DNA from: an uncultured Candidatus Saccharibacteria bacterium
Lineage (GTDB): Bacteria; Patescibacteriota; Minisyncoccia; Phycocordibacterales; CAYSCM01
Length of the DNA stretch: 64,000 bases
Assembly: GCA_964429815.1 (NCBI GenBank)
Contig: CAYSCM010000001.1
Span: forward strand, 32,001 to 96,000
Direction: 5' to 3'
Made by a program: the position numbers and the translations under genes. Below the pieces are notes generated by a model. The model made no database searches, was not told where the DNA came from, and worked only from the letters and a program-made list of their open reading frames with translations. Below, in pieces: positions 2,565 to 64,000 of this stretch; within the stretch, counting starts at the first letter, position 1; each line of letters opens with the position of its first letter.

Positions 2565-4307
2565 ATGACTCTCGAGCTCAGGGACTTTGTCCCGAAGAAG
2601 GCCCTCGGGCTCCATCCCGCCGACGTTGTCGCTGGGATTCCCTGGGGAGGACTCTCCGGTATGCGGGTGTGTTTCATCAACATGCCACTGCGGGAGTCCG
2701 CGAAGCCAAATACCCCGCCGCAAGGTCCCGGCCTTATGGCGGCCCGTCTTATGCAGTATGGCGCTGACGTCTCGATTATCGACCTCAACGGCTACCGTAT
2801 CGATGACGAAGAAGCGCACAAGCGCGGACTCGTCAATGGCCGACACGTCTCCCACAATGAGGCGCGTCAGCTCATCGAGGCGACTTTCCACAAGTTCGGC
2901 GAACCGCACGTGATTGGCCTTTCGGGGAAAATCACGACGTTGCGCTGGCAGGAGTGGACCGCCAAGACGTGTCGTTCGCTCGCTCCAGAGGCGTTTCTCA
3001 TCTCCGGCGGTGGGCTCGCGACCGAGTTCAAAGAAGGACTCTTCAGCTGGGTGCCGCAGCTCGACGCGGTCGGCCACTCGGAAGGCGACGACATCATGGT
3101 CGCCTGCGTGAATGACGTTCGCAAGAGCGGAGGCAAGCGCGAGCGCATGACCGACTCGCCCTACTACGTGGGCGAAATCGGCGGACGCCACCGCTTCCTC
3201 TATGCGGGCGATCGACCAAGGGACCTCGATGCGCTACCGTTTGCTGCGCTCGAACTTCTCGAAGAAGACGTCTTTGGCAATCGCATACTCGACGAGTACA
3301 TCGCGACCCCCGTATGGGGACTCGCGGCGAACAACTCGTCGGCGGCACCTTTCGAGATGAGGAAGTCTCTCACGACCGTCTCCTCTCGCGGCTGTCCGTA
3401 TGCCTGCGCGTTCTGCTTCCGTGGAGCGCAAGGCGAGCAAAAGTGGGGGATCCGCTCCCCCGAGAACCTGCGAGCCGAAGCCGAGTGGATGATTCGGAAG
3501 TATGGCGTGGATTTCATCGGGTTTCCCGATGACAACTTTGCCGTAAGCGTCAAGCGCTGCCAATCGCTTCCGGAGGCCTTTGACGGGCTCTCGTTTCGTT
3601 GGGGCACGCATACGCGCCTTGACGAATGCACGCTCGATCGGATCGTGCCCATGGCGAAAGCTGGGTGCATCTATATCGGCGTCGGTGCCGAATCGGCCTC
3701 GAAACACACCCTCTACCGCATGAAAAAGGGCGGACACATCGTCCGCAAGGACGGCGTGGAGCGTCTCACGAAATGGAACGGGTTCGAATTTCCGACAACG
3801 ATGATCGAGGGGATTCGAAATTGCCGAGACGTGGGTATCCACGTGAACGCGACCTGGATCATGGGATACCCAGGGGAAACCTTGGAGGACCTCAAGACCT
3901 CGGTTGCTTTCATTTCCTGGCAACAGGAGCACTACACCAAGGGATTGGTGCCCGGCACGCCGGAGTATCAAAATGCCTCGGCGTCGGTGAATCGACGCAT
4001 GTTCACGGCGACGTGGTATCCGGGGACCACCATGGTGGAAGCCCCCGAAGCCACGAAACCGCGGGAGCTCCTCGGCGAGCACTTCGGGATTCGTTTCGTC
4101 GAGAAAGGAAGCGGGCATGCACACAAGTTCGTCCCCGTTCCCGACGACGCAATGAAAGCCTATGTGCTGGAACTCGATGACGCGACTAAGATCCTCCACG
4201 GATCCGACGGAGCGCCCATCAACTACTCGGACATGCCGGAGGAGGTCTTCCTCGAGGCCCGTAGTCACATCGATTCGGGTCAAACGGAAAAGATCCTGTC
4301 GATGTAA
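2565..4307 (+). CDS. Cobalamin (B12)-binding domain / radical SAM protein (class B radical SAM, probable methyltransferase or related)
   Basis: CPYACAFC is a CxxxCxxC radical SAM cluster motif at about residue 280. The N-terminal approximately 250 aa resemble a B12-binding Rossmann-like region. A strong SD (AGGAGGA) sits at 2554-2560. The protein is 580 aa. Confidence 0.8.
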   Translation: MTLELRDFVPKKALGLHPADVVAGIPWGGLSGMRVCFINMPLRESAKPNTPPQGPGLMAARLMQYGADVSIIDLNGYRIDDEEAHKRGLVNGRHVSHNEARQLIEATFHKFGEPHVIGLSGKITTLRWQEWTAKTCRSLAPEAFLISGGGLATEFKEGLFSWVPQLDAVGHSEGDDIMVACVNDVRKSGGKRERMTDSPYYVGEIGGRHRFLYAGDRPRDLDALPFAALELLEEDVFGNRILDEYIATPVWGLAANNSSAAPFEMRKSLTTVSSRGCPYACAFCFRGAQGEQKWGIRSPENLRAEAEWMIRKYGVDFIGFPDDNFAVSVKRCQSLPEAFDGLSFRWGTHTRLDECTLDRIVPMAKAGCIYIGVGAESASKHTLYRMKKGGHIVRKDGVERLTKWNGFEFPTTMIEGIRNCRDVGIHVNATWIMGYPGETLEDLKTSVAFISWQQEHYTKGLVPGTPEYQNASASVNRRMFTATWYPGTTMVEAPEATKPRELLGEHFGIRFVEKGSGHAHKFVPVPDDAMKAYVLELDDATKILHGSDGAPINYSDMPEEVFLEARSHIDSGQTEKILSM

Positions 4308-4324
4308 TCCAGTTCTCTCACTCA

Positions 4325-4358
4325 GGGACCGCAGCAATGCGGTCCTTTTTTATTTTTA
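4325..4358 (+). terminator. Rho-independent terminator after the radical SAM gene
   Basis: The stem gggaccgcagc/gcggtcc is followed by ttttttattttta. Confidence 0.7.
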
Positions 4359-22821: not shown

Positions 22822-23537
22822 CTCGTGAAGACAAGCATTTTGTATTTCGACTTCGTGGCGCCGACCATGCGATACAGCGAATCCAAAAACAAGGTGAGCG
22901 TGTATACAAACCAGTTTTTACCTAAATGAAAGAAAAGAAAACTATCGATGAAGTTGACATGGCGCAGTTCTGAGAGCGTGGCACCCACAGCCTCAAACTT
23001 AGCCTTAATCTCCGGCAGGGTTTCGACCTCCTTGTAAGACAACCCTTTCTGGAACGAAGGTACGCTCTCAGGTATGTACTCAAGCAATAGAATTTTGCTC
23101 CCCTTTTTCATGCCAGCTATTCCTTCAAAAAAGGCCAGCCTGGCTTCCGCCGAGAGGTGGACATATACGGTCGTAGTGTATACCACGTCGGCCTTCTTGA
23201 TAGCCTCGACAACTTCCGGTCGTGGTAATGGTTTTGGAACGAAGGATGTTTGCGGCAGGGTTCCGCGTATCCTCTGCACAATTTCGATATTGAACGGGAA
23301 ATCAAAACCCGTGAAGTGCGCGTTTGGCGCCAGTCTGTGAATCGCCTCAAGGTACTCGCCTACGCCGCACCCGACATCTACAACTTCCCTTGCTCCGGCA
23401 AAGTCACGGCGAGAGAAGGCGCCCGTGCGAATGTGGTAGGCGTACCGGTCTTGCCAAACATTATGATAGTGGCAGGGATTGTGGCCTTTTTTTGTTTGTT
23501 CGAGCCAATAGTCTTCTGTGCCGTTCGTATCAAGCAT
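22818..23537 (-). CDS. SAM-dependent methyltransferase
   Basis: VVDVGCGVGEY is motif I. It is 239 aa. Confidence 0.65.
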   Translation of the reverse strand: MLDTNGTEDYWLEQTKKGHNPCHYHNVWQDRYAYHIRTGAFSRRDFAGAREVVDVGCGVGEYLEAIHRLAPNAHFTGFDFPFNIEIVQRIRGTLPQTSFVPKPLPRPEVVEAIKKADVVYTTTVYVHLSAEARLAFFEGIAGMKKGSKILLLEYIPESVPSFQKGLSYKEVETLPEIKAKFEAVGATLSELRHVNFIDSFLFFHLGKNWFVYTLTLFLDSLYRMVGATKSKYKMLVFTR

Positions 23538-24669
23538 GGGTGAGTATCGATTCGTATGCGCCTATGTACAGCTCCCCAATTCTATCCCAGCTGTGTTTTT
23601 TCGCTTCCTCTTTTCCATGCCGTGACATTTCCTCGCGAAGCGCGGGGTTCCCTACGATCTTTCGAATGGCGTCCGCGAGTTCTTTCACTGAATCCTGCGG
23701 CACCAAAAATCCATTGTAGCCGTTTTTTATCACATACTCAGAACCAAACCCGTTGGTACTCACGATAGGAGCCCCCAGTGAATGGGCTTCGTAGTAGACC
23801 ATGGGGAATCCTTCGAATGATCCTTCGATCGTCTGTGCCGCCAGCACGAAAAGAGTACAAGTGCTGTAAAGCTCAAGGAGCTTCTCGTCACTCACGCGCC
23901 CGAGAATATGGACCTGGTCTTCAAGCTTGAGCTCTTTCACAAGGGCCTTCAGCTCTTGTGCAAAAACATCGGTATCATGATAACTTCCCGCGATCTTATA
24001 TTCGAGCTCAGGAAATTCATCGCGAAGCAAATTGAGCGCGCGGACCACATAATTAGTACCCTTGCGCGGTTTGAGGCCTCCGACGGTCAGGAGAAATGGT
24101 TTCTTGGAAGCGGGGTAGCTTTTGATACCAATGAATTTGGATGGATCGACACCGAAGGGCACAAAGTGCCATCGATTGCCGAGCTTTACTGCTCGCTCGA
24201 TGCGCTCAATATTTTGCTTTGACCCGGTCGCGATGTAAGCGGCGTGGTCGTACATAAAGCGCATTACGATGCGCTTAATTCGCTGCCGCATGGTGTTTCC
24301 CGTCGGAACCACGCAGTAGGTCCCAGCAAGGGTGATAATGAATGGCTTACCTAGCACCCATGCCGCAAACGCCGCGCCTGGGCCGAGCGGCTCTATAAGC
24401 GCATGGATCACATCGCAATCTCGTAAATAACGAAAACACATAAAGGCGGTGTGGATCTGGTTCTTGAGTCCGAAACTCAAGTGATTCTTGGACAGGACGT
24501 TTTTTATTTCGTAGTTGACCAGATCATTTTCTGCCTTCTTCGAGGAAAGTACCACCACATTGTGGTAGCGCGCGACCCCACCAACAATGCCCTTCGAAAG
24601 CGTGTCCCAGCCGCCGTGGTAGGAAATCGAGGAGGTCACGTAGCCGATTTTGAGCCGCTTCATTGCCAT
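23530..24669 (-). CDS. Glycosyltransferase family 4 (GT-B)
   Basis: The C-terminal EGFPMVYYEAHSLGAPIVSTNGFGSEYVIKNGYNGFLV is the EX7E-type GT4 donor-binding region. Confidence 0.75.
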   Translation of the reverse strand: MAMKRLKIGYVTSSISYHGGWDTLSKGIVGGVARYHNVVVLSSKKAENDLVNYEIKNVLSKNHLSFGLKNQIHTAFMCFRYLRDCDVIHALIEPLGPGAAFAAWVLGKPFIITLAGTYCVVPTGNTMRQRIKRIVMRFMYDHAAYIATGSKQNIERIERAVKLGNRWHFVPFGVDPSKFIGIKSYPASKKPFLLTVGGLKPRKGTNYVVRALNLLRDEFPELEYKIAGSYHDTDVFAQELKALVKELKLEDQVHILGRVSDEKLLELYSTCTLFVLAAQTIEGSFEGFPMVYYEAHSLGAPIVSTNGFGSEYVIKNGYNGFLVPQDSVKELADAIRKIVGNPALREEMSRHGKEEAKKHSWDRIGELYIGAYESILTHA

Positions 24670-24713: not shown

Positions 24714-24742
24714 TTGACTATTGCAGATAATCGTGCTACAAT
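24714..24742 (+). promoter_or_regulatory. Near-consensus sigma70-type promoter (TTGACT-17-TACAAT) for the Nudix gene
   Basis: -35 TTGACT is at 24714-24719, followed by a 17-nt spacer and -10 TACAAT at 24737-24742. GAGGAGG precedes the ATG at 24775. Confidence 0.5.
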
Positions 24743-24774
24743 TTTGCCCGGTCTACAAAGCCGAGGAGGCACAC

Positions 24775-25362
24775 ATGCCGAAGTTCTTTCCTGCCCGCCC
24801 CGACCCGGAGCCGCCGGTCTTTTTCGAAGGCGGCGATGGCGTCCGCAAGGGATGGAGCCGGCCGTTCCTTGATGACGCTGAATACCTCACTGCCCTCAAC
24901 AAGCTCCTGATCGTCTGTTCGGACGTCTTATGGGTGAGGCCGGAATCGCAAGAGCTCTGGCTCACCTGGCGCAAGGTGCACAGCACGAAAGGCCCGTGGA
25001 TGTTCGGCGGGCGTCAGCTGCGCGGGGAAACGCCGCGCGAAGCGGCCGTGAGGAAACTCTCACGGGAGGTCGGTACCGACGTCGGGCCGGATGAACTCTC
25101 GTACCTGGCGACGCTCGTGTGGCTCTCCGAATTTCGTCAACAAGAACCCCAGGGCGCCGGCTGCCATTTCATCCTGTTCCACTACTGCTGGCAGCCACAG
25201 GACGAGCTGGTCGCTTCGAAGCAGGCAAAGCTCGACCCGGCCGAGTACGATCTCGAGCACGGCATCAAAGCCTACGGCTTGGCCGACATCGAAGCGCTCG
25301 ACGGGAAACTCTGGCCGCAACGCCAGCTTCTCATCGATCACTGGCGTCGCTGCTTCGGCTAG
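24775..25362 (+). CDS. Nudix hydrolase, GDP-mannose mannosyl hydrolase-like (Gmm/WcaH/NudD-like)
   Basis: GGRQLRGETPREAAVRKLSREVG is a degenerate Nudix box that closely parallels the E. coli Gmm box GGRVQKDETLEAAFERLTMAELG. The ORF has a good SD and is GC-rich. The ORF track starts earlier, at 24721. Confidence 0.6.
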   Translation: MPKFFPARPDPEPPVFFEGGDGVRKGWSRPFLDDAEYLTALNKLLIVCSDVLWVRPESQELWLTWRKVHSTKGPWMFGGRQLRGETPREAAVRKLSREVGTDVGPDELSYLATLVWLSEFRQQEPQGAGCHFILFHYCWQPQDELVASKQAKLDPAEYDLEHGIKAYGLADIEALDGKLWPQRQLLIDHWRRCFG

Positions 25363-25385
25363 TAGACGTCCGCTCTCGTTCTTAA

Positions 25386-25420
25386 CACTTTCGGCCGCAC
25401 CCACAGGGTGCGGCTGATTT
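25386..25420 (+). terminator. Rho-independent terminator (copy 1 of a repeated element)
   Basis: The stem cggccgcaccc-acag-gggtgcggc is followed by tgattttt. Confidence 0.6.
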
Positions 25421-25423
25421 TTC

Positions 25424-25451
25424 TTGACTATTTAAAATAGTGTGATATTAT
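25424..25451 (+). promoter_or_regulatory. Near-consensus sigma70-type promoter (TTGACT-16-TATTAT) for the hypothetical gene
   Basis: -35 TTGACT is at 25424-25429 and -10 TATTAT at 25446-25451. AGGAGAGGA precedes the ATG at 25483. Confidence 0.5.
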
Positions 25452-25482
25452 CTTCCTAGACTAGAAATTTCAGGAGAGGAAC

Positions 25483-25977
25483 ATGAGCGTGGATAGACTA
25501 CTAATCTCCAAAGAAACAAAAACCCATGAATGGTATCTTCAAAAAAAAGCCCGCGCCGCAGGCGAAACGGGCTATGATCTCTTCTTCAGCAGACTGCAGC
25601 CGTCGGACTTCAGTTTTGTCCTAGAGAAAGAGGCGGGCCGAGTCCTAATTGTAGGGACGAATTCTCAAATTCGCAATTTTTTTGCGGACCAAGAAAAAAT
25701 CCTTCGCGAGGTCTGCACAAGACGTGCCATAGCAAATCCGACGTTCATGGCCGCTGCCTCAACCAACTGGTTCTGGCAAAAATTCTTCAACTATGGAAAT
25801 TTTTTGGACAACCATCCCGAGGGAGCGACCCTTCCCGCGTTGGTTATTGCCTCGGGCGACATCCGCCACTACGACGACTGGGGTCGCGGCACCACTATCG
25901 ACAAGATCGATACGTGGCTCTCTGGCCATTGCGAGCGCTTCGGTGTACCGATTGAGTACATCAAAAGCGCCAATTAA
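25483..25977 (+). CDS. Hypothetical protein (164 aa), no recognisable family
   Basis: The ORF has a strong SD, its own promoter and its own terminator. I found no motif I could assign. Confidence 0.55.
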   Translation: MSVDRLLISKETKTHEWYLQKKARAAGETGYDLFFSRLQPSDFSFVLEKEAGRVLIVGTNSQIRNFFADQEKILREVCTRRAIANPTFMAAASTNWFWQKFFNYGNFLDNHPEGATLPALVIASGDIRHYDDWGRGTTIDKIDTWLSGHCERFGVPIEYIKSAN

Positions 25978-25987
25978 TTAAGACTTC

Positions 25988-26022
25988 GGCCGCACCCATA
26001 GGGTGCGGCCGATTTTTACTTT
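25988..26022 (+). terminator. Rho-independent terminator (copy 2, near-identical to 25386-25420)
   Basis: The stem cggccgcaccc-atag-gggtgcggcc is followed by gatttttac. It is the same 36-nt unit as copy 1, with 2 mismatches. Confidence 0.6.
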
Positions 26023-26996
26023 CCGGGATTTTTTTCGTACCAGGCGATTGTTTTTTTGAGGCCATCTCGTAGTGCCGTCACCGCTTCCCAGCCGGTATCG
26101 CGTTTTATTTTTGAGACGTCCGGAACACGTCGCTTCACGCTTCCCGTGGGACCTGGTTTGCGTTCAATAACGTTCGGCCTCCATCCGGCACGTTCGAACA
26201 AGACTTCGACGAGTTCCCCGATGTTAGTCTCGACGCTCGTACCGATATGATACGTCTCCCCGTCCGTTTTAGAACTTTCCATTACCGCCTGCATCGCCTC
26301 GACCGCATCATCAATGTAGCAAAATGAGCGCGTCTCATCGGCGCCGTAGAGGGCGAACGGATCTTCGCGTCGCTCGATGCGCCCCAACACATCGGGAATC
26401 ACGTGGTGGCCGGAGCGGGGTCCGTAGAAATTATGGGGGCGTACAACGACCGTGCGAAGTCCATACTGTTTTGCATAACTGTTGAAGAGTAGTTCTCCTA
26501 TCAACTTAGTACCGGCATACGACCACCGGGGATTACGAGGGTCAGCGATGACAAGCGGGACATTTTCAAGCGTAGGCAGCGGCAAGATGCCGAAGGCTTC
26601 AAGGGCACCGGCATATGCCTCGTTCGACGAGGTAAAAAGTATTTTTGACCCCTTCTTGTTCTTCTTAAACCACTCGAGCGCATGGACATTAAGAAGAAGG
26701 GCGGAGCGGAGAATTTCCGCAGGTATCTCATAAAAAAGCTTGGTCGAGTTAATGGCGGCTAGATGGTAGACGTCGTCAAAATCGAAGCCGAGCTTCTCCC
26801 AAGCTCTTGCTTGCGTGAGGTCGCACTGTAGGAACACAACTCCCCTCTCCTTAGTGAGAGCCCGGAACTCTTCGTCATGCTGCCCGAGCGCAAAGTTATC
26901 TACCAGGGTGAGCTCGTACCCAGCACCCTGTAATCGCTTAGCTAGGTGGTAGCCGACAAATCCTGCTGCCCCGGTTATCAAAACTCTTTTTGCCAT
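26016..26996 (-). CDS. NAD-dependent epimerase/dehydratase (extended SDR)
   Basis: MAKRVLITGAAGFVGYHLAKRL is the N-terminal motif, with the start at 26996 (cat at 26994-26996). YAGTK is the YxxxK motif. The longer ORF-track N-terminus has no support. Confidence 0.75.
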   Translation of the reverse strand: MAKRVLITGAAGFVGYHLAKRLQGAGYELTLVDNFALGQHDEEFRALTKERGVVFLQCDLTQARAWEKLGFDFDDVYHLAAINSTKLFYEIPAEILRSALLLNVHALEWFKKNKKGSKILFTSSNEAYAGALEAFGILPLPTLENVPLVIADPRNPRWSYAGTKLIGELLFNSYAKQYGLRTVVVRPHNFYGPRSGHHVIPDVLGRIERREDPFALYGADETRSFCYIDDAVEAMQAVMESSKTDGETYHIGTSVETNIGELVEVLFERAGWRPNVIERKPGPTGSVKRRVPDVSKIKRDTGWEAVTALRDGLKKTIAWYEKNPGK

Positions 26997-48282: not shown

Positions 48283-48310
48283 TTCCCGATACTACTTTAT
48301 TTTACTGAGG

Positions 48311-48392
48311 TGGGCGAGGGGAGAGTTGAACTCCCAATCCTTGCGGAATACGCTTCTGAGGCGTACGTGTATACCAATTCCACCACTCGCCC
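48311..48392 (-). tRNA. tRNA-Leu (anticodon CAG), type II with long variable arm
   Basis: The reverse complement folds as a cloverleaf. The acceptor stem is GGGCGAG/CTCGCCC. The anticodon stem TACGC/GCGTA carries the loop CTCAGAA. The variable arm is TTCCGCAAGGAT, the T-arm is GGGAG-TTCAACT-CTCCC, and the discriminator is A. Confidence 0.8.
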
Positions 48393-48544
48393 GTCTGTTC
48401 CATCCTACTCAAATATGAAAACGGGTCTAGCCGACATCAGACCGCGTGGGTCTCATTTAAAGGCGCCATCAATCCGATTTAAGCCTTCGACACACTGTTC
48501 TGTCAGCCGACTGGCGAGGGGCGGAAAAGCTGTACCGTCCTGTG

Positions 48545-48616
48545 TGCGAGTGGAAGGAATCGAACCTTCGACCTCTGTCTTATCAGGACAGCGTTCTACC
48601 ACTGAACTACACTCGC
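48545..48616 (-). tRNA. tRNA-Ile (anticodon GAT)
   Basis: The reverse complement reads GCGAGTGTAGTTCAGTGGTAGAACGCTGTCCTGATAAGACAGAGGTCGAAGGTTCGATTCCTTCCACTCGCA. It has a perfect 7-bp acceptor stem, the anticodon loop CTGATAA and the T-loop GGTTCGATTCC. Confidence 0.85.
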
Positions 48617-48925
48617 AATGAGGTGGATACTAGCAAGAGAGCGCCTCCCTATCAACAGCTCCCCCTTCATGCGGGGTGCGTTTGGTCGGTACAATGATGG
48701 TGGTTCCAGTAGAAAGGAGAGAACCTTTGTGCGGTTGGTCACGACGTACACTCAAACGGGATCGCGGTCGTAGCCGAGAAATTCGGTCAAAGCCCATCCA
48801 GGAGGAGCTTTCCCTGCTCACCCCGAATGTCTCACGTGTCCTTCCCGAAGCCACAGTCGCTCCACCGGCGAGTCGCTCCGCGCGGCTCCCCTCACAGCAG
48901 CGACTCGCTGAGCTCTATGCCGCAA

Positions 48926-48990
48926 GGAGGTGATCCAGTCGCGTAAGAGCCCTACCAAGGCGCTTACGACTACCGTTTTCGAACGTTCTT
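48926..48990 (-). rRNA. Orphan 16S rRNA 3'-terminal fragment (helix-45-like hairpin plus canonical GGATCACCTCCTT anti-SD tail), not contiguous with the 16S body
   Basis: Plus-strand AAGGAGGTGATCCAGTCGCG at 48926-48945 matches the universal 1525R region with 1 mismatch. Upstream, rRNA-sense CGUAAG...CUUACG forms a 6-bp stem, and AGUCGUAA resembles the 1492-1500 region. It lies about 310 nt upstream of tRNA-Ile, the classic position of a 16S 3' end. Confidence 0.5.
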
Positions 48991-48998
48991 TCTTTCAA

Positions 48999-49057
48999 GC
49001 GCGCCGCGTTAGCGGCGCGCTTTCTATTCAAAAAAAGACCCGCTCTCAGAGCGGGTC
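48999..49057. terminator. Back-to-back hairpin terminator module (plus-strand hairpin gcgcgccgc-gtta-gcggcgcgc + T-run; minus-strand hairpin gacccgctct-c-agagcgggtc + T-run)
   Basis: The plus-strand hairpin at 48999-49020 is followed by tttctattcaaaaaaa. The minus-strand hairpin at 49037-49057 is followed by TTTTTTT (49030-49036). The module sits directly after the stop at 49070 of the membrane-protein operon. Confidence 0.6.
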
Positions 49058-49069
49058 AGGTACGGGGGG

Positions 49070-49477
49070 TTATGCATCGTCGCGGTGACATAGCCGCAGG
49101 AGCGCACTAACGATGAGGACAGCTCCGAGGACGACCGGGGTGAACGCGGCGTTGAGTTCCCTATGGATGCCTAACCGGAGACCAATGAAGGTGACGACGA
49201 GGCCACCGAAGAACAGGATCGCGCTTTTCTCCACGTACGGGCTCCAGATTCGACAGAGGATGCCGCGCCATCCTCCCGTCATGAGAGCGGAAGCTACCAC
49301 CCCCAAGCTGTAGGAGGGAAAAGAATCCGTTTCCCGAACGAGGGCGTGGACGAAAAGCATGAGCCCGAGGAGAAAGACAAACGTGCCGAGTCCGATGATA
49401 AGCCGAGCCACGATGGACTCGCGAAGAACGCGAGGACGACTCCAATCGTGAAAAAGCTTGGTGGAGCGTTGAGACAT
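49070..49477 (-). CDS. Small integral membrane protein (about 135 aa, 4 predicted TM helices)
   Basis: AAGGAGG lies 9 nt upstream of the ATG at 49477 (MSQRSTKLF...). Hydrophobic helices include LIIGLGTFVFLLGLMLFV, LGVVASALMTGG, AILFFGGLVVTFIGL and PVVLGAVLIVSALL. It is the last gene of a 4-gene operon and is followed by a terminator. The ORF track extends to 49510. Confidence 0.5.
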   Translation of the reverse strand: MSQRSTKLFHDWSRPRVLRESIVARLIIGLGTFVFLLGLMLFVHALVRETDSFPSYSLGVVASALMTGGWRGILCRIWSPYVEKSAILFFGGLVVTFIGLRLGIHRELNAAFTPVVLGAVLIVSALLRLCHRDDA

Positions 49478-49561
49478 GGATGGACCCTCCTTCTTTCGTC
49501 GTGATACCACTCTTCCTGAGCCGCCGCAACCTGTGGAAAACCGTTACGCAAGAAGGCCGCC

Positions 49562-49771
49562 CTACGGGCGGCCTTGCGGCTTTTTCTCGGCGCGACAGAT
49601 AAAGACGCACAGTATCATAAGCGCGATCGCGATGATGATAAAGAGCGTCCCCGCCGGCAGCGCATGAACAGGTTTTCCGCGTTGGATGATGCCGCCGATG
49701 AGCGCGGCAAAGCCGGCACCGGCAAGAACGAGCGCGAAGAAAGCCGTTGTGAGATTCGCTGCCTTTTTCAT
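49562..49771 (-). CDS. Small membrane protein (69 aa, 2 TM)
   Basis: GAGG lies 7 nt upstream. FFALVLAGAGFAALIGGII and LFIIIAIALMILCVFI are the two transmembrane segments. Its start overlaps the stop of the upstream tiny ORF (ATGA). Confidence 0.45.
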   Translation of the reverse strand: MKKAANLTTAFFALVLAGAGFAALIGGIIQRGKPVHALPAGTLFIIIAIALMILCVFICRAEKKPQGRP

Positions 49772-49773
49772 GG

Positions 49774-49893
49774 GAGCCTCACGAGCGGTCCGTGGAAGTA
49801 GAGAAACACGTCGAGCGCCAAACTGAAAAAGAACAGGCTTAGCAGGATACGTTTCTTCCCGCTTGGGCCCGAGAACGCCTTGATGGGATGCAT
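49774..49893 (-). CDS. Tiny hydrophobic ORF (39 aa)
   Basis: Its translation is MHPIKAFSGPSGKKRILLSLFFFSLALDVFLYFHGPLVRLP. GGGAGGG lies 6 nt upstream. It is translationally coupled to the next gene and is not in the ORF track because it is under 60 aa. The call is speculative. Confidence 0.3.
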
Positions 49894-49996
49894 GCTAGCC
49901 CTCCCTGGTACCTTGGCACATCCTAGCTAAAGAGGCATGCCGGCGCAATCTAAGAAGAGCGCCGCCGGTGGTGCCGGCGGCGTCGTGTCCCCACGA

Positions 49997-50251
49997 TCAA
50001 GGGAAGGTTCGGTCGATGAACGAGCCGAAGTAGCCGACGCCGAAGCCGAGTCCGAGGTACTGGAGCGGTCGGAGCGGTGCCTCGAGCATGTTGACGGCAG
50101 CGTAGGCGCCGAGCATCCAGGCTATACCTACCGTGAGCGCCCCGGCGGCCACGCCGGTCGCAACGTCACGGTACCAAGAGGCCTGAGCGTCCCACATGTG
50201 GTCGAGGCGCTCGAGTCCAGTGCGATAGTTCCGTAGGGTTCCGTCGGGCAT
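49997..50251 (-). CDS. Small membrane protein (84 aa)
   Basis: AAGGAGG lies 7 nt upstream of the ATG at 50251. A candidate promoter on the minus strand at about 50262-50296 reads TTGTGT-17nt-TAGAAC. The hydrophobic segments are VAAGALTVGIAWMLGAYAAV and LGLGFGVGYFGSFI. Confidence 0.5.
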   Translation of the reverse strand: MPDGTLRNYRTGLERLDHMWDAQASWYRDVATGVAAGALTVGIAWMLGAYAAVNMLEAPLRPLQYLGLGFGVGYFGSFIDRTFP

Positions 50252-50325
50252 AGGAACCTCCTTTCCTTTCCCGTCCCTGTTCTACCGAAGTTTTGCGCTC
50301 TACACAATGGCTTCCTCCCCATGCG

Positions 50326-50356
50326 CAAAAAAGCCCCTTATAAGGGGCTTTTTTGC
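50326..50356. terminator. Perfectly palindromic bidirectional intrinsic terminator (AAAAAAGCCCCTTA-TAAGGGGCTTTTTT)
   Basis: The stem GCCCCTTA/TAAGGGGC is flanked by an A6 run on one side and a T6 run on the other, so it is a terminator on either strand. It lies about 150-180 nt downstream of the contiguous 16S 3' end. Confidence 0.6.
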
Positions 50357-50504
50357 GTTGGTACCAGAGTCTCTTTTGTTCCGTTCAATATACCAGTACG
50401 CATTTCTGGAAAGCGAGCAGACTTTAAAGACATACTGCTATGGTCTACTTCCGTACTCGATCGAGATACAGAATATCGACCGGATAAGTCTTACCTTCCG
50501 AAGA

Positions 50505-51980
<1,476 letters not shown>

Positions 51981-52230
51981 AATTCGTTGAACGGAACAAA
52001 AGAGAGGCTGGTACCTCCTTCTTGATTCCTTTTACCCGTCCGAGCCGCAAAGCGGTTAGGATTAGGGTTTTTTGATCAGACTACACCGCCCTGGTTGGCG
52101 GCTAATCTAGTTGAACAGATTTTGTCTGCTCGCACATAACGTTCTTTGATTATCAATGATCACTACCTCATTGGCCGTTCGCCTCAAGCGGATTAGGCCG
52201 AAACAAAAACCTGCCCAAGGCAGTGCAGAC

Positions 52231-52259
52231 AGTATACGCAGAATTTGATGGGTGTCAAA
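52231..52259 (-). promoter_or_regulatory. Candidate rRNA promoter (TTGACA-17-TATACT) about 250 nt upstream of the 16S 5' end
   Basis: On the minus strand, -35 TTGACA maps to plus-strand 52254-52259 and -10 TATACT maps to plus-strand 52231-52236. An AT-rich UP-like region lies upstream. Confidence 0.45.
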
Positions 52260-52386
52260 TGAAGGTCGCTCGCACACATCTTTTTGGAAACACGCATAAA
52301 ATAGGGCTTATTTTTGCTCCGCTCGCGCCGTCGCTCTGTGCGAGGTTTCCAAAAAGAGAATGCTCGCTCAAACAGGAAATGTAAAA

Positions 52387-52989
52387 TCAGATTGCGCCAC
52401 TCTGTGGAGGTTTTTTATTGAGATGTTGCCCAAAGAACGCCAGAGCTGTGATCGTTGTGTTGGCAAAAATCAAATAAATCGGATAAATCAGGTTAGCAAT
52501 ATCGAATTTTGTAGTCGAGACGGCAGCTAGAATTGCAGCGACGGCAATCATTGCCCACCCGAGAACGTTTTCTGAATAGGGCTCTCGATATGTCTTGGCT
52601 ATTGTCGGAATAGTCGAAATCAGGTCAGCCAGTACCGCTAGAATGAGCGCTACGAGAGGTTGTTTTGTAATTTGCCACAAACCTATAGCGATTATTGCTA
52701 GAGCAAAACAAGTATAATCAAGTGCCCCGTATTTTCTGTACCCATAACCAGACAAAGCAACAACAAGAATAAGCGCAGTGTTAAAAGTTGTTGTTATCAA
52801 GATTATGATGGACCACGATGCGCCGGCACTGAACTGAGCGGCTATGGCAATAATTTGTAGCGTGGTCCAAAGAACAAATGAAATTATATTTGGCCGAGTC
52901 GTACCCTTTATCATGCTTCTGACATAGGGGAAAACAGAGGCAATCTGGATTATTCCAGCAATAATTCCAACTACCGCATGCCAATCCAT
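52387..52989 (-). CDS. Integral membrane protein (about 200 aa, about 6 TM), function unknown
   Basis: The hydrophobic core starts at MDWHAVVGIIAGIIQIASVF (start at 52989). The ORF track extends to 53211, but the extra N-terminus is R/S/P-rich and has no support. The gene abuts secF. Confidence 0.5.
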   Translation of the reverse strand: MDWHAVVGIIAGIIQIASVFPYVRSMIKGTTRPNIISFVLWTTLQIIAIAAQFSAGASWSIIILITTTFNTALILVVALSGYGYRKYGALDYTCFALAIIAIGLWQITKQPLVALILAVLADLISTIPTIAKTYREPYSENVLGWAMIAVAAILAAVSTTKFDIANLIYPIYLIFANTTITALAFFGQHLNKKPPQSGAI

Positions 52990-52990
52990 C

Positions 52991-53893
52991 TTATTTCTTC
53001 TGCCAGCGCTCGATGGTGACGAGAAGTGGCGAGCCGAGGAAAATTGAGGAGTAGGTACCAGCGGCAATACCAATGAGAAGGGCAAGGGCGAAATTTTTGG
53101 TCGCCTCCGCGCCGAAAAAGTAAAGCGCGAGGAGCGAGAGGAGCACGGAGAGCGAGGTGTTGATCGAGCGATTAAAGGTCTGCGCAATACTCTTCCCAAC
53201 CGTAGTCCCAAACTCTTCCCGAATTCCCTGCTGGTGATTCACGCGGAGATTTTCACGCACGCGGTCGAAGACGACGATGGTATCGTGGACCGAAAAACCG
53301 AGCACCACGAGAAGCGCAGTGACAAAGAGCGTATCCACCTCAAACCCGGCATAGTGTCCGAGTATCGCAAATACCCCCGTTGGAATGATGACGTTATGGA
53401 TAAGCCCCACAATGGCGACCAATCCATACTTCCACGATGAAACAGGCTGCGACACCTTGCGAAACGCGAACGCGATGAAGAGGAGGATGGCCACGATGAC
53501 GAGCGCGACCGCGATCGTCGACTTGGTGCGAAGTTCCGAGCCGATCGTGGGGCCGATAGAGTTGTGCTGCTCACTCGTGATCTTCGCCGTCCCCCCGAGA
53601 GAAAGGGCGTTGAGAACTGCCACACGCTCTGGCTCTTGGAGATCTCGCGAACGAAGGATGTAACCATCGACTCCTGTGGGGCGCAGCGAGTAGGTTCCGA
53701 GCGTGAGAGTATTTAATTTACCCTCAGCCGCGGTTTTATCGGGCACTTGTCCCGCGTAGTGGACCTCTGTGAGAGCCCCGCCGGTAAAATCAATGCCGAG
53801 CTGAAGTCCAAAGAAAACAATCGCAAGGAGAGAGAGCCCCACCAGGACGGCGGAGAGGGCGTAGAAGAGTTTTCGATAAGTGATGACGAACAT
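52991..53893 (-). CDS. secF: Protein-export membrane protein SecF
   Basis: GIDFTGGALTEV is the SecF periplasmic-domain motif. The C-terminal six-TM region contains FGFSVHDTIVVFDRVRE. Confidence 0.85.
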   Translation of the reverse strand: MFVITYRKLFYALSAVLVGLSLLAIVFFGLQLGIDFTGGALTEVHYAGQVPDKTAAEGKLNTLTLGTYSLRPTGVDGYILRSRDLQEPERVAVLNALSLGGTAKITSEQHNSIGPTIGSELRTKSTIAVALVIVAILLFIAFAFRKVSQPVSSWKYGLVAIVGLIHNVIIPTGVFAILGHYAGFEVDTLFVTALLVVLGFSVHDTIVVFDRVRENLRVNHQQGIREEFGTTVGKSIAQTFNRSINTSLSVLLSLLALYFFGAEATKNFALALLIGIAAGTYSSIFLGSPLLVTIERWQKK

Positions 53894-53895
53894 AG

Positions 53896-55281
53896 CTAGA
53901 ATTTGAACCCGTTACCAAAGAGTGCTCGCACTGCGCCCTTGTTTTCCCGGTGAAGAAGGCCGAGCGCATAAAGGAAGGTACGGCTTATAGAGACCGCGGT
54001 AAACATCGAGACGAGGACCCCGACCCCGAAGACAAGCGCAAAACCTTTAATAACCGCTGTGCCGCCAAGCCAGTAGAGGATAAAGGCGGTAATGATGGAA
54101 GAAATATTTGAGTCGCGGATTGAAGGCCACGCACGCGCAAAGCCTTCACGGATGGCTTCACCGAGCTTGTGTCCACGATTGAGCTCCTCTTTCATACGCT
54201 CGAATATGAGAATGTTCGCGTCAACCGCCATACCGACAGAGAGAATGAATCCTGCGATGCCGGCCGCAGTGAGCGTCACCGGGATGATCTTAAAGAGCGC
54301 GAGCATCATGACGACGTACATTCCGAGCGCCAGAATAGAGATGAGGCCGGGGAGGCGGTACCACAGGAGCATGAAGAGGGCGACGGCAAGGAAGCCGAGT
54401 TCGCCCGCATAGACACTCTTAGCTGCTGCCGCTTCTCCGAGCGAGGCACCGATCGTTTGAGTCCCGATAAGGGAAATGGGTACAGGGAGCGCGCCGAAAT
54501 TGAGGCTCTGCACAAGATCGCGCGCCTCGGTCGGCGTAAAGTTCCCGGAAATCGTCGCTTTACCACCAGTGATGGCCTCGCGGATGACTGGGGTCGATAT
54601 CGGTACGCCGTCGAGGAAAATGCCCAGTACGCCGCCTACATGCTCGCGCGTAATCTTTTCAAAAAGCGCCGAACCTTCCGCATTGAATTCGATCGACACG
54701 ATCGGTTGATTAATGTTCGCGCCACCCTGCCCTGTCCCGAAATTGAGCGTTGCGCGGGAGAAGAGGCGCCCGGTGAGGCCGGTGTCCGTGAAGGCCGAGT
54801 TGACGTCGAAAGTTTTGGCCTCTGAGGAGCCCGGCTCCGGTATCTTCGCGTCCGGCTTCATGAGCTTGAACTCAAGGAGAGGCGTCTTGCCGATGGCGAA
54901 AATCGCGGCGTTTACGTCCGTGACGCCAGGAAGCTCGACGATGAGGCGGTTCTCGGAGACGCCGGAGAGCGCGCTTGCGCGCTCCACCTGCACGAGAGGC
55001 TCCGAGACACCGAAAGCATTTACACGGCTCTCAATGACGGTGCGCAGCACTTCCATCGATGGTCCAATGTCGCCGGAAGCAACCTTTTTGGTGTCGGCTT
55101 TGTAGACGAGATGCGACCCGCCCGAGAGGTCGAGGCCGAGCTTAAAGGCGAAGCGCCCCGGGGAAAGCTGGGAGTGATAGACGAAGTAGCCGACCGCAAT
55201 CCCTGCGATGAGTATTAAAATGGCACTGACGCGCTGCCATACCATGGGGGTGAGCTTAGCAGAAAACCCTACCGTATGCAC
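53896..55281 (-). CDS. secD: Protein-export membrane protein SecD
   Basis: LGLDLSGGSHLVY is the SecD motif. The C-terminal TM bundle contains SIITAFILYWLG. It is adjacent to and co-oriented with secF. Confidence 0.85.
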   Translation of the reverse strand: MHTVGFSAKLTPMVWQRVSAILILIAGIAVGYFVYHSQLSPGRFAFKLGLDLSGGSHLVYKADTKKVASGDIGPSMEVLRTVIESRVNAFGVSEPLVQVERASALSGVSENRLIVELPGVTDVNAAIFAIGKTPLLEFKLMKPDAKIPEPGSSEAKTFDVNSAFTDTGLTGRLFSRATLNFGTGQGGANINQPIVSIEFNAEGSALFEKITREHVGGVLGIFLDGVPISTPVIREAITGGKATISGNFTPTEARDLVQSLNFGALPVPISLIGTQTIGASLGEAAAAKSVYAGELGFLAVALFMLLWYRLPGLISILALGMYVVMMLALFKIIPVTLTAAGIAGFILSVGMAVDANILIFERMKEELNRGHKLGEAIREGFARAWPSIRDSNISSIITAFILYWLGGTAVIKGFALVFGVGVLVSMFTAVSISRTFLYALGLLHRENKGAVRALFGNGFKF

Positions 55282-55286
55282 TACTG

Positions 55287-56231: not shown

Positions 56232-56236
56232 GCGGC

Positions 56237-57586: not shown

Positions 57587-57649
57587 CGATTTAGCTCTTA
57601 CACAAGTTACCTATGTGGAGCGCTACCTCGTGGTAGCCTTTTATAAACT

Positions 57650-59902: not shown

Positions 59903-59904
59903 GA

Positions 59905-60666: not shown

Positions 60667-60683
60667 GGGAAGAATAGTAACAC

Positions 60684-60717
60684 GAAAAAAACACCTCACT
60701 TTGAGGTGTTTTTTTGA
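60684..60717. terminator. Bidirectional intrinsic terminator (AAAAAAACACCTCA-CTT-TGAGGTGTTTTTTT)
   Basis: It is a perfect 8-bp stem flanked by A7 and T7 runs. It lies between the 5S region and the start of the convergent or adjacent protein gene. Confidence 0.6.
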
Positions 60718-60732
60718 CTTTTAAATCCCCTA

Positions 60733-60790
60733 ACCTGGCGGCTACCTACTCTCCCCTTGCGAGTACCTAGCGGCGTAGCGGGCTGAAAGC
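60733..60790 (-). repeat. Partial duplicate of the 3' about 55 nt of 5S rRNA (pseudo-copy)
   Basis: The region 60733-60770 is identical to the 3' end of the intact 5S (aacctggcggctacctactctccccttgcgagtacc). It then diverges into unrelated hairpin-forming sequence. Confidence 0.45.

Positions 60791-61464: not shown

Positions 61465-64000
<2,536 letters not shown>

What the first reader, a model, noticed from the sequence alone, without database searches (positions are those of the whole stretch)
24714..26022. Plus-strand two-gene insert in a minus-strand cluster: each gene has its own near-consensus promoter and both end in the same 36-nt terminator (2 mismatches), forming direct repeats 602 bp apart
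Within about 60 kb of mostly long, promoter-poor polycistrons, this 1.3 kb stretch is built differently. The Nudix gene carries TTGACT-17-TACAAT, a strong SD and a terminator. The hypothetical 164-aa gene carries TTGACT-16-TATTAT, a strong SD and the same terminator.

The repeated element cttcggccgcaccca[c/t]agggtgcggc[t/c]gattttt flanks the second gene as a direct repeat. The Nudix ORF is noticeably more GC-rich than its surroundings.

This looks like cassette-style acquisition or duplication of a promoter-gene-terminator module, or a small non-autonomous insertion using the hairpin as a recombination site. The 164-aa protein is completely uncharacterised.
Basis: seen in the sequence. Interest (0 to 1): 0.55.

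Follow-up and report, generated by a model that had tools for sequence, protein, structure and literature searches.

The report
Orphan gene bracketed by duplicated terminator
In a sugar-coat gene cluster of a small uncultured bacterium, one gene of the flagged pair (a Nudix hydrolase) is an old, conserved member of the cluster. The other is a later single-gene addition that carries its own promoter and sits between two copies of the resident transcription terminator, a layout that also turns up around two other genes in related genomes.

Summary
The sequence features are real. Two plus-strand genes each have a near-consensus promoter, a strong ribosome-binding site and a very stable hairpin terminator. 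The two terminators match at 31 of 33 bases and start 595 bp apart, not 602.

The "two-gene insert" reading is only half right. The Nudix gene is an ancestral, divergently transcribed member of this glycan cluster. Relatives with about 55% identical neighbours keep the order GT(-) | Nudix(+) | epimerase(-) UDP-sugar dehydrogenase(-). One relative has nothing after Nudix, and another has a different gene there.

The Nudix protein most resembles GDP-mannose mannosyl hydrolase. It is the most GC-rich gene in the window.

The 164-aa gene is the extra element. It runs from promoter to stop codon (555 bp) and lies between duplicate copies of the resident terminator. Its composition is typical of the host.

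It belongs to a small unannotated family. The predicted α/β fold is confident (pLDDT 91) but has no close structural relative.

The same bracket of duplicated terminators surrounds a 30%-identical homologue in another genome. It also surrounds an unrelated AT-rich gene in a third genome. This points to a general, moron/PeSL-like way of gaining genes at terminators. Whether the hairpin is common elsewhere in the source genome could not be tested.

The parts
23530..24669 (-). Group-1 glycosyltransferase gene, the divergent upstream neighbour of the Nudix gene. It is conserved in that position in a relative.
   Evidence: Pfam Glycos_transf_1, E=3.5e-37. It is 55% identical to the gene divergent from the Nudix orthologue in L003.
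24714..24742 (+). Promoter P1 of the Nudix gene: TTGACT-17-TACAAT with a TG extended -10.
   Evidence: 10 of 12 matches. The -10 and the sequence just downstream resemble the promoter of the L003 orthologue.
24775..25362 (+). Nudix gene (195 aa) with a degenerate Nudix box (RKLSREVG), resembling GDP-mannose mannosyl hydrolase. It is a conserved cluster member and the most GC-rich gene in the window.
25390..25422 (+). Terminator copy 1: 12-bp stem at 25391-25417, loop ACA, T5 tail. It terminates the Nudix gene.
   Evidence: -24.2 kcal/mol.
25424..25451 (+). Promoter P2 of the 164-aa gene: TTGACT-16-TATTAT with a TG extended -10. It starts one base after the T-run of terminator copy 1.
25483..25977 (+). 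164-aa gene of a small unannotated family with a predicted flavodoxin-like α/β fold. Together with P2 it forms the inferred 555-bp inserted segment, 25423-25977.
25985..26017 (+). Terminator copy 2: perfect 12-bp stem at 25986-26012, loop ATA, T5 tail. It lies between the convergent 164-aa gene and the epimerase gene, whose stop codon (26016-26018) overlaps the T-run.
   Evidence: -27.4 kcal/mol on the + strand, -26.4 on the - strand.
26016..26996 (-). NAD-dependent sugar epimerase/dehydratase gene, the convergent downstream neighbour and last gene of the upstream minus-strand operon. This is the 326-aa gene call. The longest ORF from the first ATG after the preceding stop would start at 27080.
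   Evidence: Pfam Epimerase, E=7e-44. It is 56% identical to the gene convergent with the Nudix orthologue in L005.

Best explanation
**The locus.** It is a convergent gap in a nucleotide-sugar/glycan biosynthesis cluster of a small-genome bacterium, probably of the CPR/Patescibacteria type. The taxonomy is not established.

**The Nudix gene.**
- It is an ancestral member of the cluster, transcribed opposite to its neighbours from its own strong promoter.
- It ends at a hairpin that originally served both it and the converging epimerase operon.
- Its product most likely hydrolyses a nucleotide-sugar, in the manner of GDP-mannose mannosyl hydrolase, and so trims the precursor pool of the pathway.

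**The 164-aa gene.**
- It is a later addition. A 555-bp segment (25423-25977), running from the -35 box to the stop codon and carrying no terminator of its own, lies just after the resident terminator.
- The whole terminator (33 nt, perhaps 41) is present again at the far end of that segment.
- The result is a self-contained, insulated transcription unit. Copy 1 still terminates the Nudix gene. Copy 2 terminates the new gene and shields the converging operon from antisense read-through.
- The two direct repeats also make the unit precisely deletable, or able to form a circle, by recombination. This resembles the terminator/promoter cassettes (PeSLs) that shuffle orphan genes in T4-type phages.

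**Shown versus inferred.**
- Shown: the anatomy, the conserved synteny, the composition, the family, and the recurrence of the layout.
- Inferred: the direction of the event (gain here rather than loss elsewhere), the way the terminator was duplicated (a staggered break across the hairpin, or recombination), and the biochemical roles of both proteins.
- The 164-aa protein is guessed to bind a phosphorylated ligand. Its conserved Gly/Thr/Arg loops sit at the C-terminal edge of the β-sheet, and its relatives often lie near Nudix or inositol-phosphatase-type genes.
For: **Conserved synteny.**
- L005 has Nudix(+) followed directly by one hairpin and then convergent epimerase and UDP-sugar dehydrogenase genes. 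These are 56% identical to the window's genes, and the L005 Nudix orthologue is 48% identical.
- L003 has the 55%-identical glycosyltransferase divergent from Nudix. An unrelated Inositol_P gene, with its own promoter and terminator, occupies the slot after Nudix.

**Empty-site reconstruction.** Removing 595 bp leaves a convergent gap of about 58 nt with one terminator 27 nt after the Nudix stop. In L005 the corresponding spacing is 26 nt.

**The repeat.** It matches at 31 of 33 positions and is unique in 64 kb. Other terminators in the window are unrelated.

**The Nudix protein.**
- The family profile's best solved-structure match is GDP-mannose mannosyl hydrolase 1rya (E=1.2e-5, across the domain). 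The shared degenerate box is RLxxAE.
- NCBIfam NF011963 is matched weakly by 5 of 6 family members.
- Loss of Nudix-box residues is characteristic of GDP-sugar glycosyl hydrolases (PMC5389931).

**The 164-aa gene is real.** It has 23 distant homologues with conserved motifs, and the model has pLDDT 91.2.

**Recurrence of the layout.**
- A 30%-identical homologue in L134/L135 is flanked by a different 33-nt hairpin+T7 repeat, 94-97% identical between copies. The flank-similarity test gives z of about 21, against z=18 for the window.
- Among 121 control genes, one further case appeared. It is an AT-rich PaaX-like gene in L127 (GC 0.41 against 0.48-0.57 in the other genes of the locus), sitting between convergent genes. 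It is flanked by two copies of a palindromic bidirectional terminator.
- No such bracket around a gene was found in 915 kb of unrelated bacterial loci.
Against: - The relatives are distant (about 55% identity). Gain in this lineage therefore cannot be told apart from loss in the others, for example by recombination between the repeats.
- No close relative with an empty site was available. The neighbouring epimerase has no cluster partner at 90% identity.
- The 164-aa gene has host-like composition, so there is no compositional evidence that it arrived from outside.
- The rest of the source genome, about 440 kb of the 501.7-kb contig, could not be scanned for more copies of the hairpin. The genome-collection scan filled up with generic matches. 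The specific pattern found nothing in the metagenome collection.
- The Nudix-to-GDPMH link is weak by sequence. Scores are far below NCBIfam cut-offs, and the window protein itself does not list NF011963.
- Only 2 of 9 loci of the 164-aa family show the repeat.
- No recombinase or transposase lies within ±10 kb.
Confidence: 0.58

Rival explanations
1. One reading: both plus-strand genes arrived together as one foreign two-gene insert, or arose by duplication of a single promoter-gene-terminator module, inside a minus-strand cluster.
For: - Both genes lie on the plus strand with similar promoters and terminators.
- The Nudix gene is the strongest compositional outlier in the window.
- Its orthologue in L003 is also a GC island: GC3 0.78 against 0.40-0.50 in the cluster genes around it, while the Inositol_P gene next to it is at 0.56.
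Against: - The Nudix gene keeps the same orientation and the same neighbours in L003 and L005.
- The 164-aa gene is absent from both.
- The two proteins are unrelated: one is a Nudix domain, the other a different α/β family. The only shared DNA is the terminator and a 9-nt -35 motif, and that motif occurs a third time in the window.
- The two genes differ in composition (GC3 0.78 and 0.58).
Confidence: 0.08
2. The hairpin is simply a frequent terminator or a dispersed REP-like repeat of this genome. On this view the two copies sit either side of the 164-aa gene by coincidence and mark no event.
For: - The 9-bp stem GCCGCACCC/GGGTGCGGC occurs as a terminator stem in more than 119 unrelated genomes, so the core is not distinctive.
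- The rest of the source genome could not be searched.
Against: - There are only two copies in 64 kb, even allowing 3 mismatches.
- At least six other strong terminators in the window have unrelated stems.
- None of the 119 foreign hits shares the flanks or the tail.
- The same bracket, built from different sequences, recurs in two other genomes.
Confidence: 0.1
3. The 164-aa gene family is itself mobile. Its product, or a partner acting in trans, directs insertion into intrinsic terminators and duplicates them, like a very long target-site duplication.
For: - Two of nine distinct family loci, in different genomes and with different terminator sequences, are flanked by a duplicated 33-nt terminator.
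- Family members sit in unrelated genomic contexts, each appearing to be a single-gene unit.
Against: - Seven of nine loci have no flanking repeat.
- The same bracket surrounds an unrelated PaaX-like gene in L127, so the layout is not specific to this family.
- The protein has no invariant acidic, His or Ser residue of the kind expected in a nuclease or recombinase.
- The best structural matches are generic CheY/Rossmann-like folds at Z no higher than 6.2.
- There are no relatives in viral, phage or plasmid collections.
Confidence: 0.08
4. The 164-aa gene and both terminator copies are ancestral to the cluster. The relatives lost the gene by recombination between the two repeats.
For: - The gene has host-like composition.
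- Direct repeats of 33 nt would allow precise deletion, leaving exactly the single-terminator state seen in L005.
- A family member lies in another glycan cluster in L129.
Against: - L003 has a different gene in the same slot, with unrelated terminators.
- The repeats differ at only 2 of 33 positions, including a loop base, which suggests a duplication more recent than the roughly 45% protein divergence between these lineages.
- Even on this view the duplication still has to be explained.
Confidence: 0.14

Closest known systems
Phage 'morons': extra genes carried as autonomous promoter-gene-terminator units between conserved genes. The definition is from my own knowledge of the lambdoid-phage literature.
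   Same: A single accessory gene with its own σ70-type promoter and a factor-independent terminator sits between two conserved genes and is transcribed independently of them.
   Different: This one is in a bacterial chromosome's glycan cluster, not a prophage. The gene does not differ in composition from the host. Its terminator is a copy of the neighbour's terminator rather than its own.
PeSL cassettes of T4-type phages: composite terminator/early-promoter motifs that flank orphan genes and mediate modular shuffling and mini-circle formation (PMC2839356, PMC4122927).
   Same: A stable stem-loop terminator is followed at once by a strong σ70-like promoter (25390-25451). An orphan-like gene lies between repeated regulatory sequences. 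Such direct repeats could produce precise loss or a circular intermediate.
   Different: Only the terminator part is repeated, and only twice in 64 kb. PeSLs are dispersed, many-copy motifs in hyperplastic regions of phage genomes. This locus is cellular, and no circles have been shown.
GDP-mannose mannosyl hydrolase (GDPMH, Gmm/NudD/WcaH; PDB 1rya).
   Same: It is a Nudix-fold protein encoded inside a polysaccharide gene cluster. The Nudix box has lost the first two Glu residues of REUXEE: RLTMAELG in GDPMH, against RLLKAEVG, RLLQAEIG and RKLSREVG here. It is the best solved-structure match of the family profile.
   Different: The match is weak (E=1.2e-5, 28 bits). The proteins here are 30-45 residues longer, with a conserved N-terminal PEPP..F.G.G segment. 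They fall far below the NCBIfam cut-off, and the substrate is unknown.
attL/attR direct repeats around integrated elements, and cis-mobilisable elements that lack an integrase. This is from my own knowledge.
   Same: The inserted DNA is flanked by direct repeats of a short sequence that restores the function of the target, here the neighbour's terminator.
   Different: No integrase was found within ±10 kb. The unit is only 555 bp. Nothing shows that the incoming DNA carried a copy of the site beforehand.

Membership tests
Intrinsic (Rho-independent) terminator | A GC-rich stem-loop directly followed by a U-run, placed just after a stop codon. | tested here: met
   Each copy has a 12-bp stem with 9-10 GC pairs, a 3-nt loop and a T5 tail. 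Energies are -24.2 and -27.4 kcal/mol, with z-scores of about -7.5 to -7.9. Copy 1 lies 27 nt after the Nudix stop codon, and copy 2 lies 7 nt after the stop codon of the 164-aa gene.
Intrinsic (Rho-independent) terminator | Transcripts actually end at the site. | not testable with these tools
   This needs 3'-end mapping such as Term-seq.
σ70-type promoter | -35 and -10 hexamers close to consensus with 16-18 nt spacing, upstream of a gene. | tested here: met
   Both score 10 of 12 and have a TG extended -10, tied with one other site for the best score in 19 kb. In the whole window, site counts do not exceed shuffles, so only the quality and placement of these two sites carry weight.
Nudix superfamily | A match to the NUDIX domain above the curated cut-off. 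| tested here: met
   PF00293, 39 bits against a cut-off of 21.1.
Nudix superfamily | The canonical Nudix box GX5EX7REUXEEXGU. | tested here: not met
   The window protein has G-x5-E-x7-RKLSREVGT, so two of the three Glu residues of REUXEE are replaced.
GDP-mannose mannosyl hydrolase (GDPMH) | Sequence membership, meaning NCBIfam NF011963 above its cut-off. | tested here: not met
   Five of six family members match only weakly (best E=1e-4). The window protein does not list the family at all.
GDP-mannose mannosyl hydrolase (GDPMH) | A modified Nudix box lacking key Glu residues. | tested here: met
   The family profile aligns to 1rya, pairing RLTMAELG with RLLKAEVG. The literature records loss of motif residues in this clade (PMC5389931).
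GDP-mannose mannosyl hydrolase (GDPMH) | A catalytic His in the C-terminal part (His124 in the E. coli enzyme, from my own knowledge). | tested here: inconclusive
   H162 is invariant in the family and usually preceded by Glu (motif EYDLEH; Lys in P0004). The HMM alignment to 1rya stops before this region.
GDP-mannose mannosyl hydrolase (GDPMH) | Hydrolysis of GDP-sugar to GDP plus sugar. | not testable with these tools
   This needs an enzyme assay.
Phage moron | An autonomous promoter-gene-terminator unit between conserved genes. | tested here: met
Phage moron | Located in a phage or prophage, usually with composition unlike its flanks. | tested here: not met
   All neighbouring genes are glycan-biosynthesis genes. 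The 164-aa gene has GC and GC3 within the host range. There are no viral, phage or PHROG relatives.
PeSL-type regulatory cassette | A composite of a terminator stem-loop and a strong σ70-like promoter. | tested here: met
   The hairpin and T-run at 25390-25422 are followed one base later by the -35 box at 25424. A second such composite, with a different hairpin, lies at 420-347(-).
PeSL-type regulatory cassette | Many dispersed, similar copies that recombine with one another. | tested here: not met
   Only two copies of the hairpin exist in 64 kb. The rest of the genome was not searchable.
Integron gene cassette | A promoterless ORF plus an attC site, next to an integron integrase. | tested here: not met
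   The gene has its own promoter. The hairpin is a perfect GC stem with a T-run, and no GTTRRRY core lies at its borders. No integrase was found within ±10 kb.
IS, transposon or MITE | A transposase or terminal inverted repeats, with a short target-site duplication. | tested here: not met
   The 555-bp insert holds only a promoter and the 164-aa ORF. The flanking direct repeat is 33-41 nt, the whole terminator.
REP-like dispersed repeat | Tens to hundreds of copies per genome. | tested here: inconclusive
   There are two copies in 64 kb. The genome-wide scan did not reach the source genome.

The most novel reading that the evidence does not exclude
Small-genome (CPR-type) bacteria may gain single genes by a route not yet described for cellular chromosomes. 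A bare promoter-plus-ORF segment lands at an intrinsic terminator, often the shared terminator of two convergent genes. The entire terminator (33-37 bp) is duplicated in the process. The new gene is therefore insulated at once, and it can later be removed or moved by recombination between the two copies. Three independent examples in about 200 kb would be the first sightings: the window, L134/L135 and L127.
Probability: 0.2. Interest if true: 0.65.

Novelty: new variant of a known kind. Interest (0 to 1): 0.42.

Why it matters
How streamlined, recombination-poor genomes such as those of CPR bacteria take up new genes is poorly understood, particularly how they do so without disturbing tightly packed operons. 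A recurring layout in which a promoter-plus-gene segment sits between two copies of the neighbour's terminator suggests a simple answer. The new gene is insulated on both sides from the moment it arrives, and it can be deleted cleanly.

If this is general, duplicated terminators would be a cheap sequence signature for finding recent single-gene gains. The finding also marks two proteins for experiments. One is a GDPMH-like Nudix conserved in CPR glycan clusters. The other is a confidently folded but unannotated 164-aa family that often lies near Nudix or sugar-phosphate genes.

If it is not general, this is an ordinary local duplication around an accessory gene.

Tried and rejected
1. **Genome-collection scan with the 9-bp stem pattern.** None shared the flanks, and the source genome was not among them. 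This shows the stem core is generic, but the scan was wasted for the copy-number question.
2. **Metagenome scan with a specific 25-base pattern.** No hits, so the organism is not in that collection.
3. **Word-indexed protein search for the 164-aa protein.** It found only the protein itself and two relatives. The exhaustive HMMER search was needed to find the family.
4. **Single-sequence AlphaFold model.** pLDDT 45, unusable. It was replaced by the alignment-based model.
6. **Mobile-element collections.** The viral-contig scan and tblastn against phage and plasmid collections found no relatives. A first attempt with the full alignment failed for lack of a conserved block.
7. **Promoter duplication idea.** I rejected the idea that the two promoters are duplicates of each other. 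TTGACTATT occurs a third time at 375(-), also in a promoter-like setting.
8. **High-expression codon bias as the cause of the Nudix GC3.** In this window its synonymous codon choice leans further toward the genome's own preference (95th percentile). In L003, however, the orthologue's GC3 of 0.78 runs against a background of about 0.44. The other high-GC3 genes here are not expression-type genes (DUF4015 and FtsW). This remains unresolved.
9. **Literature search for duplicated terminators as target-site duplications.** Nothing was found.
Full report
**1. What is in the sequence**

The region 24714-26022 holds two plus-strand ORFs. One is 24775-25362 (195 aa) and the other is 25483-25977 (164 aa). 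They lie between a minus-strand glycosyltransferase gene that starts at 24669 and a minus-strand epimerase gene that ends at 26016.

Each plus-strand ORF has a strong Shine-Dalgarno sequence and a near-consensus promoter with a TG extended -10 (TTGACT-17-TACAAT and TTGACT-16-TATTAT). Both promoters score 10 of 12, tied with one other site as the best promoter-like matches in 16-35 kb. The two hairpins are the two best terminator-like sites there.

The hairpins have 12-bp stems and fold at -24.2 and -27.4 kcal/mol, with z-scores of about -7.5 to -7.9. They share 31 of 33 ungapped positions (25390-25422 and 25985-26017) and start 595 bp apart.

With the 5' flank TTAA[C/G]AC and one indel, the repeat may reach about 41 nt. 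The two substitutions inside the hairpin are a loop base and a C-to-T change that keeps a G·U pair.

No other copy exists in the 64 kb, even with three mismatches allowed. Shuffled sequence gives none. The arrangement is identical in two independent assemblies.

**2. Composition**

The Nudix gene has GC 0.629 and GC3 0.781. It is the highest of 47 genes (means 0.532 and 0.605, SD 0.032 and 0.061). It is more GC-rich than any other 590-bp window, and its tetranucleotide distance is in the top 0.8%.

The 164-aa gene is unremarkable: GC 0.503, GC3 0.582, tetranucleotide distance in the top 5.7%, and codon score at the 9th percentile. The compositional anomaly is real, but it sits on the Nudix gene only.

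**3. Context and related loci**

The neighbourhood is a large nucleotide-sugar/glycan cluster. It contains glycosyltransferases, a DegT aminotransferase, methyltransferases, several epimerase/dehydratases, a UDP-sugar dehydrogenase, sulfotransferases and an AsnB-like gene. No recombinase lies within ±10 kb.

The Nudix protein has a handful of relatives at 43-49% identity. Their contigs settle the question of what is ancestral.

- In L005 the orthologue lies on the opposite strand to its neighbours. It is followed by one hairpin and then by convergent epimerase and UDP-sugar dehydrogenase genes. These are 56% identical to the window's genes.
- In L003 the 55%-identical glycosyltransferase is divergent from the orthologue. 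The slot after Nudix holds an unrelated Inositol_P gene with its own promoter and its own, different, terminator.
- In the more distant L138 the Nudix gene follows another gene on the same strand. A further small gene with its own promoter follows it.

The unit GT(-) | Nudix(+) | epimerase(-) is therefore ancestral, and the position after Nudix is variable. Removing the 595-bp repeat unit from the window leaves a convergent gap of about 58 nt with one terminator 27 nt after the Nudix stop. This closely resembles L005, where the spacing is 26 nt.

**4. The Nudix protein**

It passes the Pfam NUDIX threshold, but its Nudix box is degenerate. The window protein has RKLSREVG, and the relatives have RLLKAEVG or RLLQAEIG.

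A profile of the six family members finds E. coli GDP-mannose mannosyl hydrolase (1rya) as its best solved relative (E=1.2e-5). The alignment covers the N-terminal segment and most of the fold. It pairs the family's box with GDPMH's RLTMAELG.

NCBIfam NF011963 (GDPMH) is the family matched by the most members (5 of 6, a count shared with four other Nudix families) and has the best E-value. All scores are far below the cut-off.

Loss of Nudix-box residues is a recorded hallmark of GDP-sugar glycosyl hydrolases (PMC5389931). I conclude that the protein works like an NDP-sugar hydrolase serving the cluster. Membership of the GDPMH family proper is not shown.

An oddity remains. The orthologue in L003 has the same high GC3 (0.78) in a background of about 0.44, while the one in L005 is at 0.46. 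L003 and L005 are nonetheless the closer pair, at 67% identity. I cannot explain this.

**5. The 164-aa protein**

The word-indexed search found only the protein itself. The exhaustive HMMER search found 23 further proteins of 148-236 aa at E≤1e-3, about 30% identical.

They share clear motifs: RVLVxGT, FWxxFFGxxxFLD, PALIIxTGxMRNYxxxGGET and RLxEIAxxWxIPI. F97, P118 and R128 are invariant.

One member is annotated as coming from Candidatus Saccharibacteria. Another sits in a context that looks archaeal.

With this alignment AlphaFold gives a confident model (pLDDT 91.2, pTM 0.86). It shows N-terminal helices followed by a four-stranded parallel α/β domain with a β-hairpin.

The genomic contexts vary:
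- between DHFR and ThyA;
- in another glycan cluster, with a Nudix gene five genes away;
- directly upstream of Inositol_P and a sugar-phosphate isomerase-type gene;
- near IF3/L20 with a Nudix gene nearby;
- near NusB, a Nudix gene and RNase III.

A Nudix gene or domain lies within about five genes in five of the nine contexts. That is suggestive, but no measured background rate was available.

The conserved Gly/Thr/Arg loops lie at the C-terminal edge of the sheet. This leads me to guess a binding site for a phosphorylated ligand. It is an inference only.

**6. The duplicated terminator recurs elsewhere**

I compared the 220 nt upstream and downstream of each family gene.

- The window scores z=18.
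- The 30%-identical homologue in L134/L135 (one locus, sampled in two populations) scores z of about 21. Its repeat is a different 33-nt hairpin+T7 element, 94-97% identical between copies and 764 bp apart. A TTGACA promoter lies between copy 1 and the gene.
- The other seven family loci show nothing.

The same test on 121 other genes in the window and related loci gave one more clear case. An AT-rich PaaX-like gene in L127 (GC 0.41 against 0.48-0.57 in the other genes of the locus) sits between convergent MiaA and acyltransferase genes. It is flanked by two copies of a palindromic bidirectional terminator, AAAA-GGCCGATCGGCC-TTTT, 701 bp apart.

In 915 kb of unrelated bacterial loci, no short local repeat was a terminator pair bracketing a gene. 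One tandem hairpin pair 174 bp apart was seen in L032.

The layout of a promoter-plus-gene between two copies of the resident terminator is thus recurrent in these small-genome lineages. It is not tied to one gene family. The sample is small, and the loci were not chosen at random.

**7. Mechanism**

*Shown.* The inserted segment in the window runs from one base after the T-run of copy 1 (the -35 box starts at 25424) to the stop codon at 25977. The repeated flank begins at 25978. The segment therefore carries a promoter, a ribosome-binding site and an ORF, but no terminator. The terminator at its 3' end is a copy of the target.

*Inferred.* Either insertion took place across a staggered break spanning the hairpin, giving a very long target-site duplication, or the segment entered by recombination at the terminator.

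Either way, copy 1 still ends Nudix transcription. Copy 2 ends the new gene and protects the converging epimerase operon. On the minus strand the hairpin is equally stable (-26.4 kcal/mol), but its tail is U-poor.

The direct repeats also permit precise deletion or circle formation. This is documented for the terminator/promoter PeSL cassettes that flank orphan genes in T4-type phages (PMC2839356, PMC4122927).

The junction of terminator copy 1 with promoter P2 is itself a PeSL-like composite. A second such composite, built on a different hairpin, lies at 420-347(-).

**8. What remains open**

It could be answered only within 64 kb: two copies, with the other terminators unrelated.

The genome-collection scan was saturated by generic matches to the stem. 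The specific pattern is absent from the metagenome collection.

No close relative is available to distinguish gain from loss. The organism's taxonomy was not established. A CPR affiliation is suggested by the family's distribution and by the separation of the 16S gene from the 23S-5S pair.

**9. Verdict**

The Nudix gene is an ordinary, conserved cluster gene with an unexplained GC bias. The 164-aa gene belongs to an uncharacterised family and occupies a moron/PeSL-like unit whose terminator is a duplicate of its neighbour's.

The recurrence of this layout in two other genomes is the most interesting result. It deserves a systematic survey.

Noticed in passing
window 48309-64000: The rRNA genes are unlinked and in an unusual order on the minus strand. 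The 23S gene (61464-64000, cut by the window end) and the 5S gene (60916-61021) come first. About 9 kb of protein genes follow, including FtsW and SecD/F-type genes. Then comes the 16S gene (50519-51980), with a TTGACA-16-TATACT promoter at 52258-52231. An ORF-poor spacer of about 1.9 kb with several hairpins separates it from tRNA-Ile and tRNA-Leu.
   Followed up: partly
window 60731-60767 and 60914-60950: There is a perfect 37-nt direct repeat. The last 35 nt of the 5S rRNA gene plus 2 nt beyond its 3' end occur again 183 nt downstream. The second copy lies just before a strong terminator, and another long hairpin lies between the two copies.
   Followed up: no
window 24775-25362; L003 929-1549; L005 494-1072: Orthologous Nudix genes have GC3 0.78 in two genomes whose backgrounds differ (about 0.60 and 0.44). 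In a third genome the value is 0.46. The GC-rich L003 gene is closer in protein sequence to the GC-poor L005 gene (67%) than to the window's gene (47%).
   Followed up: partly
L127 3755-4493: An AT-rich PaaX_M-domain gene (3801-4331, minus strand; GC 0.41 against 0.48-0.57 in the other genes of the locus) lies between convergent MiaA and acyltransferase genes. It is flanked by two copies of a palindromic bidirectional terminator (CAAAC.AAAA..GGCCGATCGGCC..TTTT.GT.TGT), 701 bp apart.
   Followed up: yes
L134 1387-2183; L135 2315-3111: A 191-aa homologue of the 164-aa protein is flanked by a 33-nt hairpin+T7 direct repeat (CCGACGACTCTCCCGAGCCGCCGGTTTTTTTAT), 764 bp apart. A TTGACA promoter follows copy 1. 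The two populations carry different single-base variants in the repeat.
   Followed up: yes
window 24714, 25424 (+) and 375 (-): The 9-mer TTGACTATT occurs three times in 64 kb, against about 0.5 expected. Each time it is the -35 part of a promoter-like site. The copies at 25424 and 375 each lie shortly after a terminator hairpin: one base after the T-run at 25424 and about 20 nt at 375.
   Followed up: partly
window 25549-25563 (-): Inside the 5' part of the 164-aa ORF, the minus strand carries a terminator-like hairpin (GCCTGCGGCGCGGGC) followed by T8. It could stop antisense read-through from the epimerase operon. It falls in a poorly conserved stretch of the protein family.
   Followed up: no
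L003 880-925 and 1640-1685: The promoters of the Nudix orthologue and of the following Inositol_P gene share TTGAC plus an extended -10/discriminator stretch (TACAGTTGCCCGCGGACA and TACAGTT-CGCGCGGACA). Here it is the promoters flanking the Nudix gene, not the terminators, that resemble each other.
   Followed up: partly
L129, L134, L136, L137 and the window: A Nudix gene or domain lies within about five genes of a member of the 164-aa family in five of nine contexts. In L137 the upstream neighbour is a 958-aa tRNA-synthetase-family protein that also carries a NUDIX hit. An Inositol_P gene directly follows the homologue in L130, and one follows the Nudix orthologue in L003.
   Followed up: partly
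L132 4526-4541 and 4970-4985: Identical 16-nt stretches (GGCCGAGAAAGGACTG) precede two successive small ORFs downstream of the Saccharibacteria homologue P0010. This suggests tandem small genes with a duplicated translation-initiation region.
   Followed up: no
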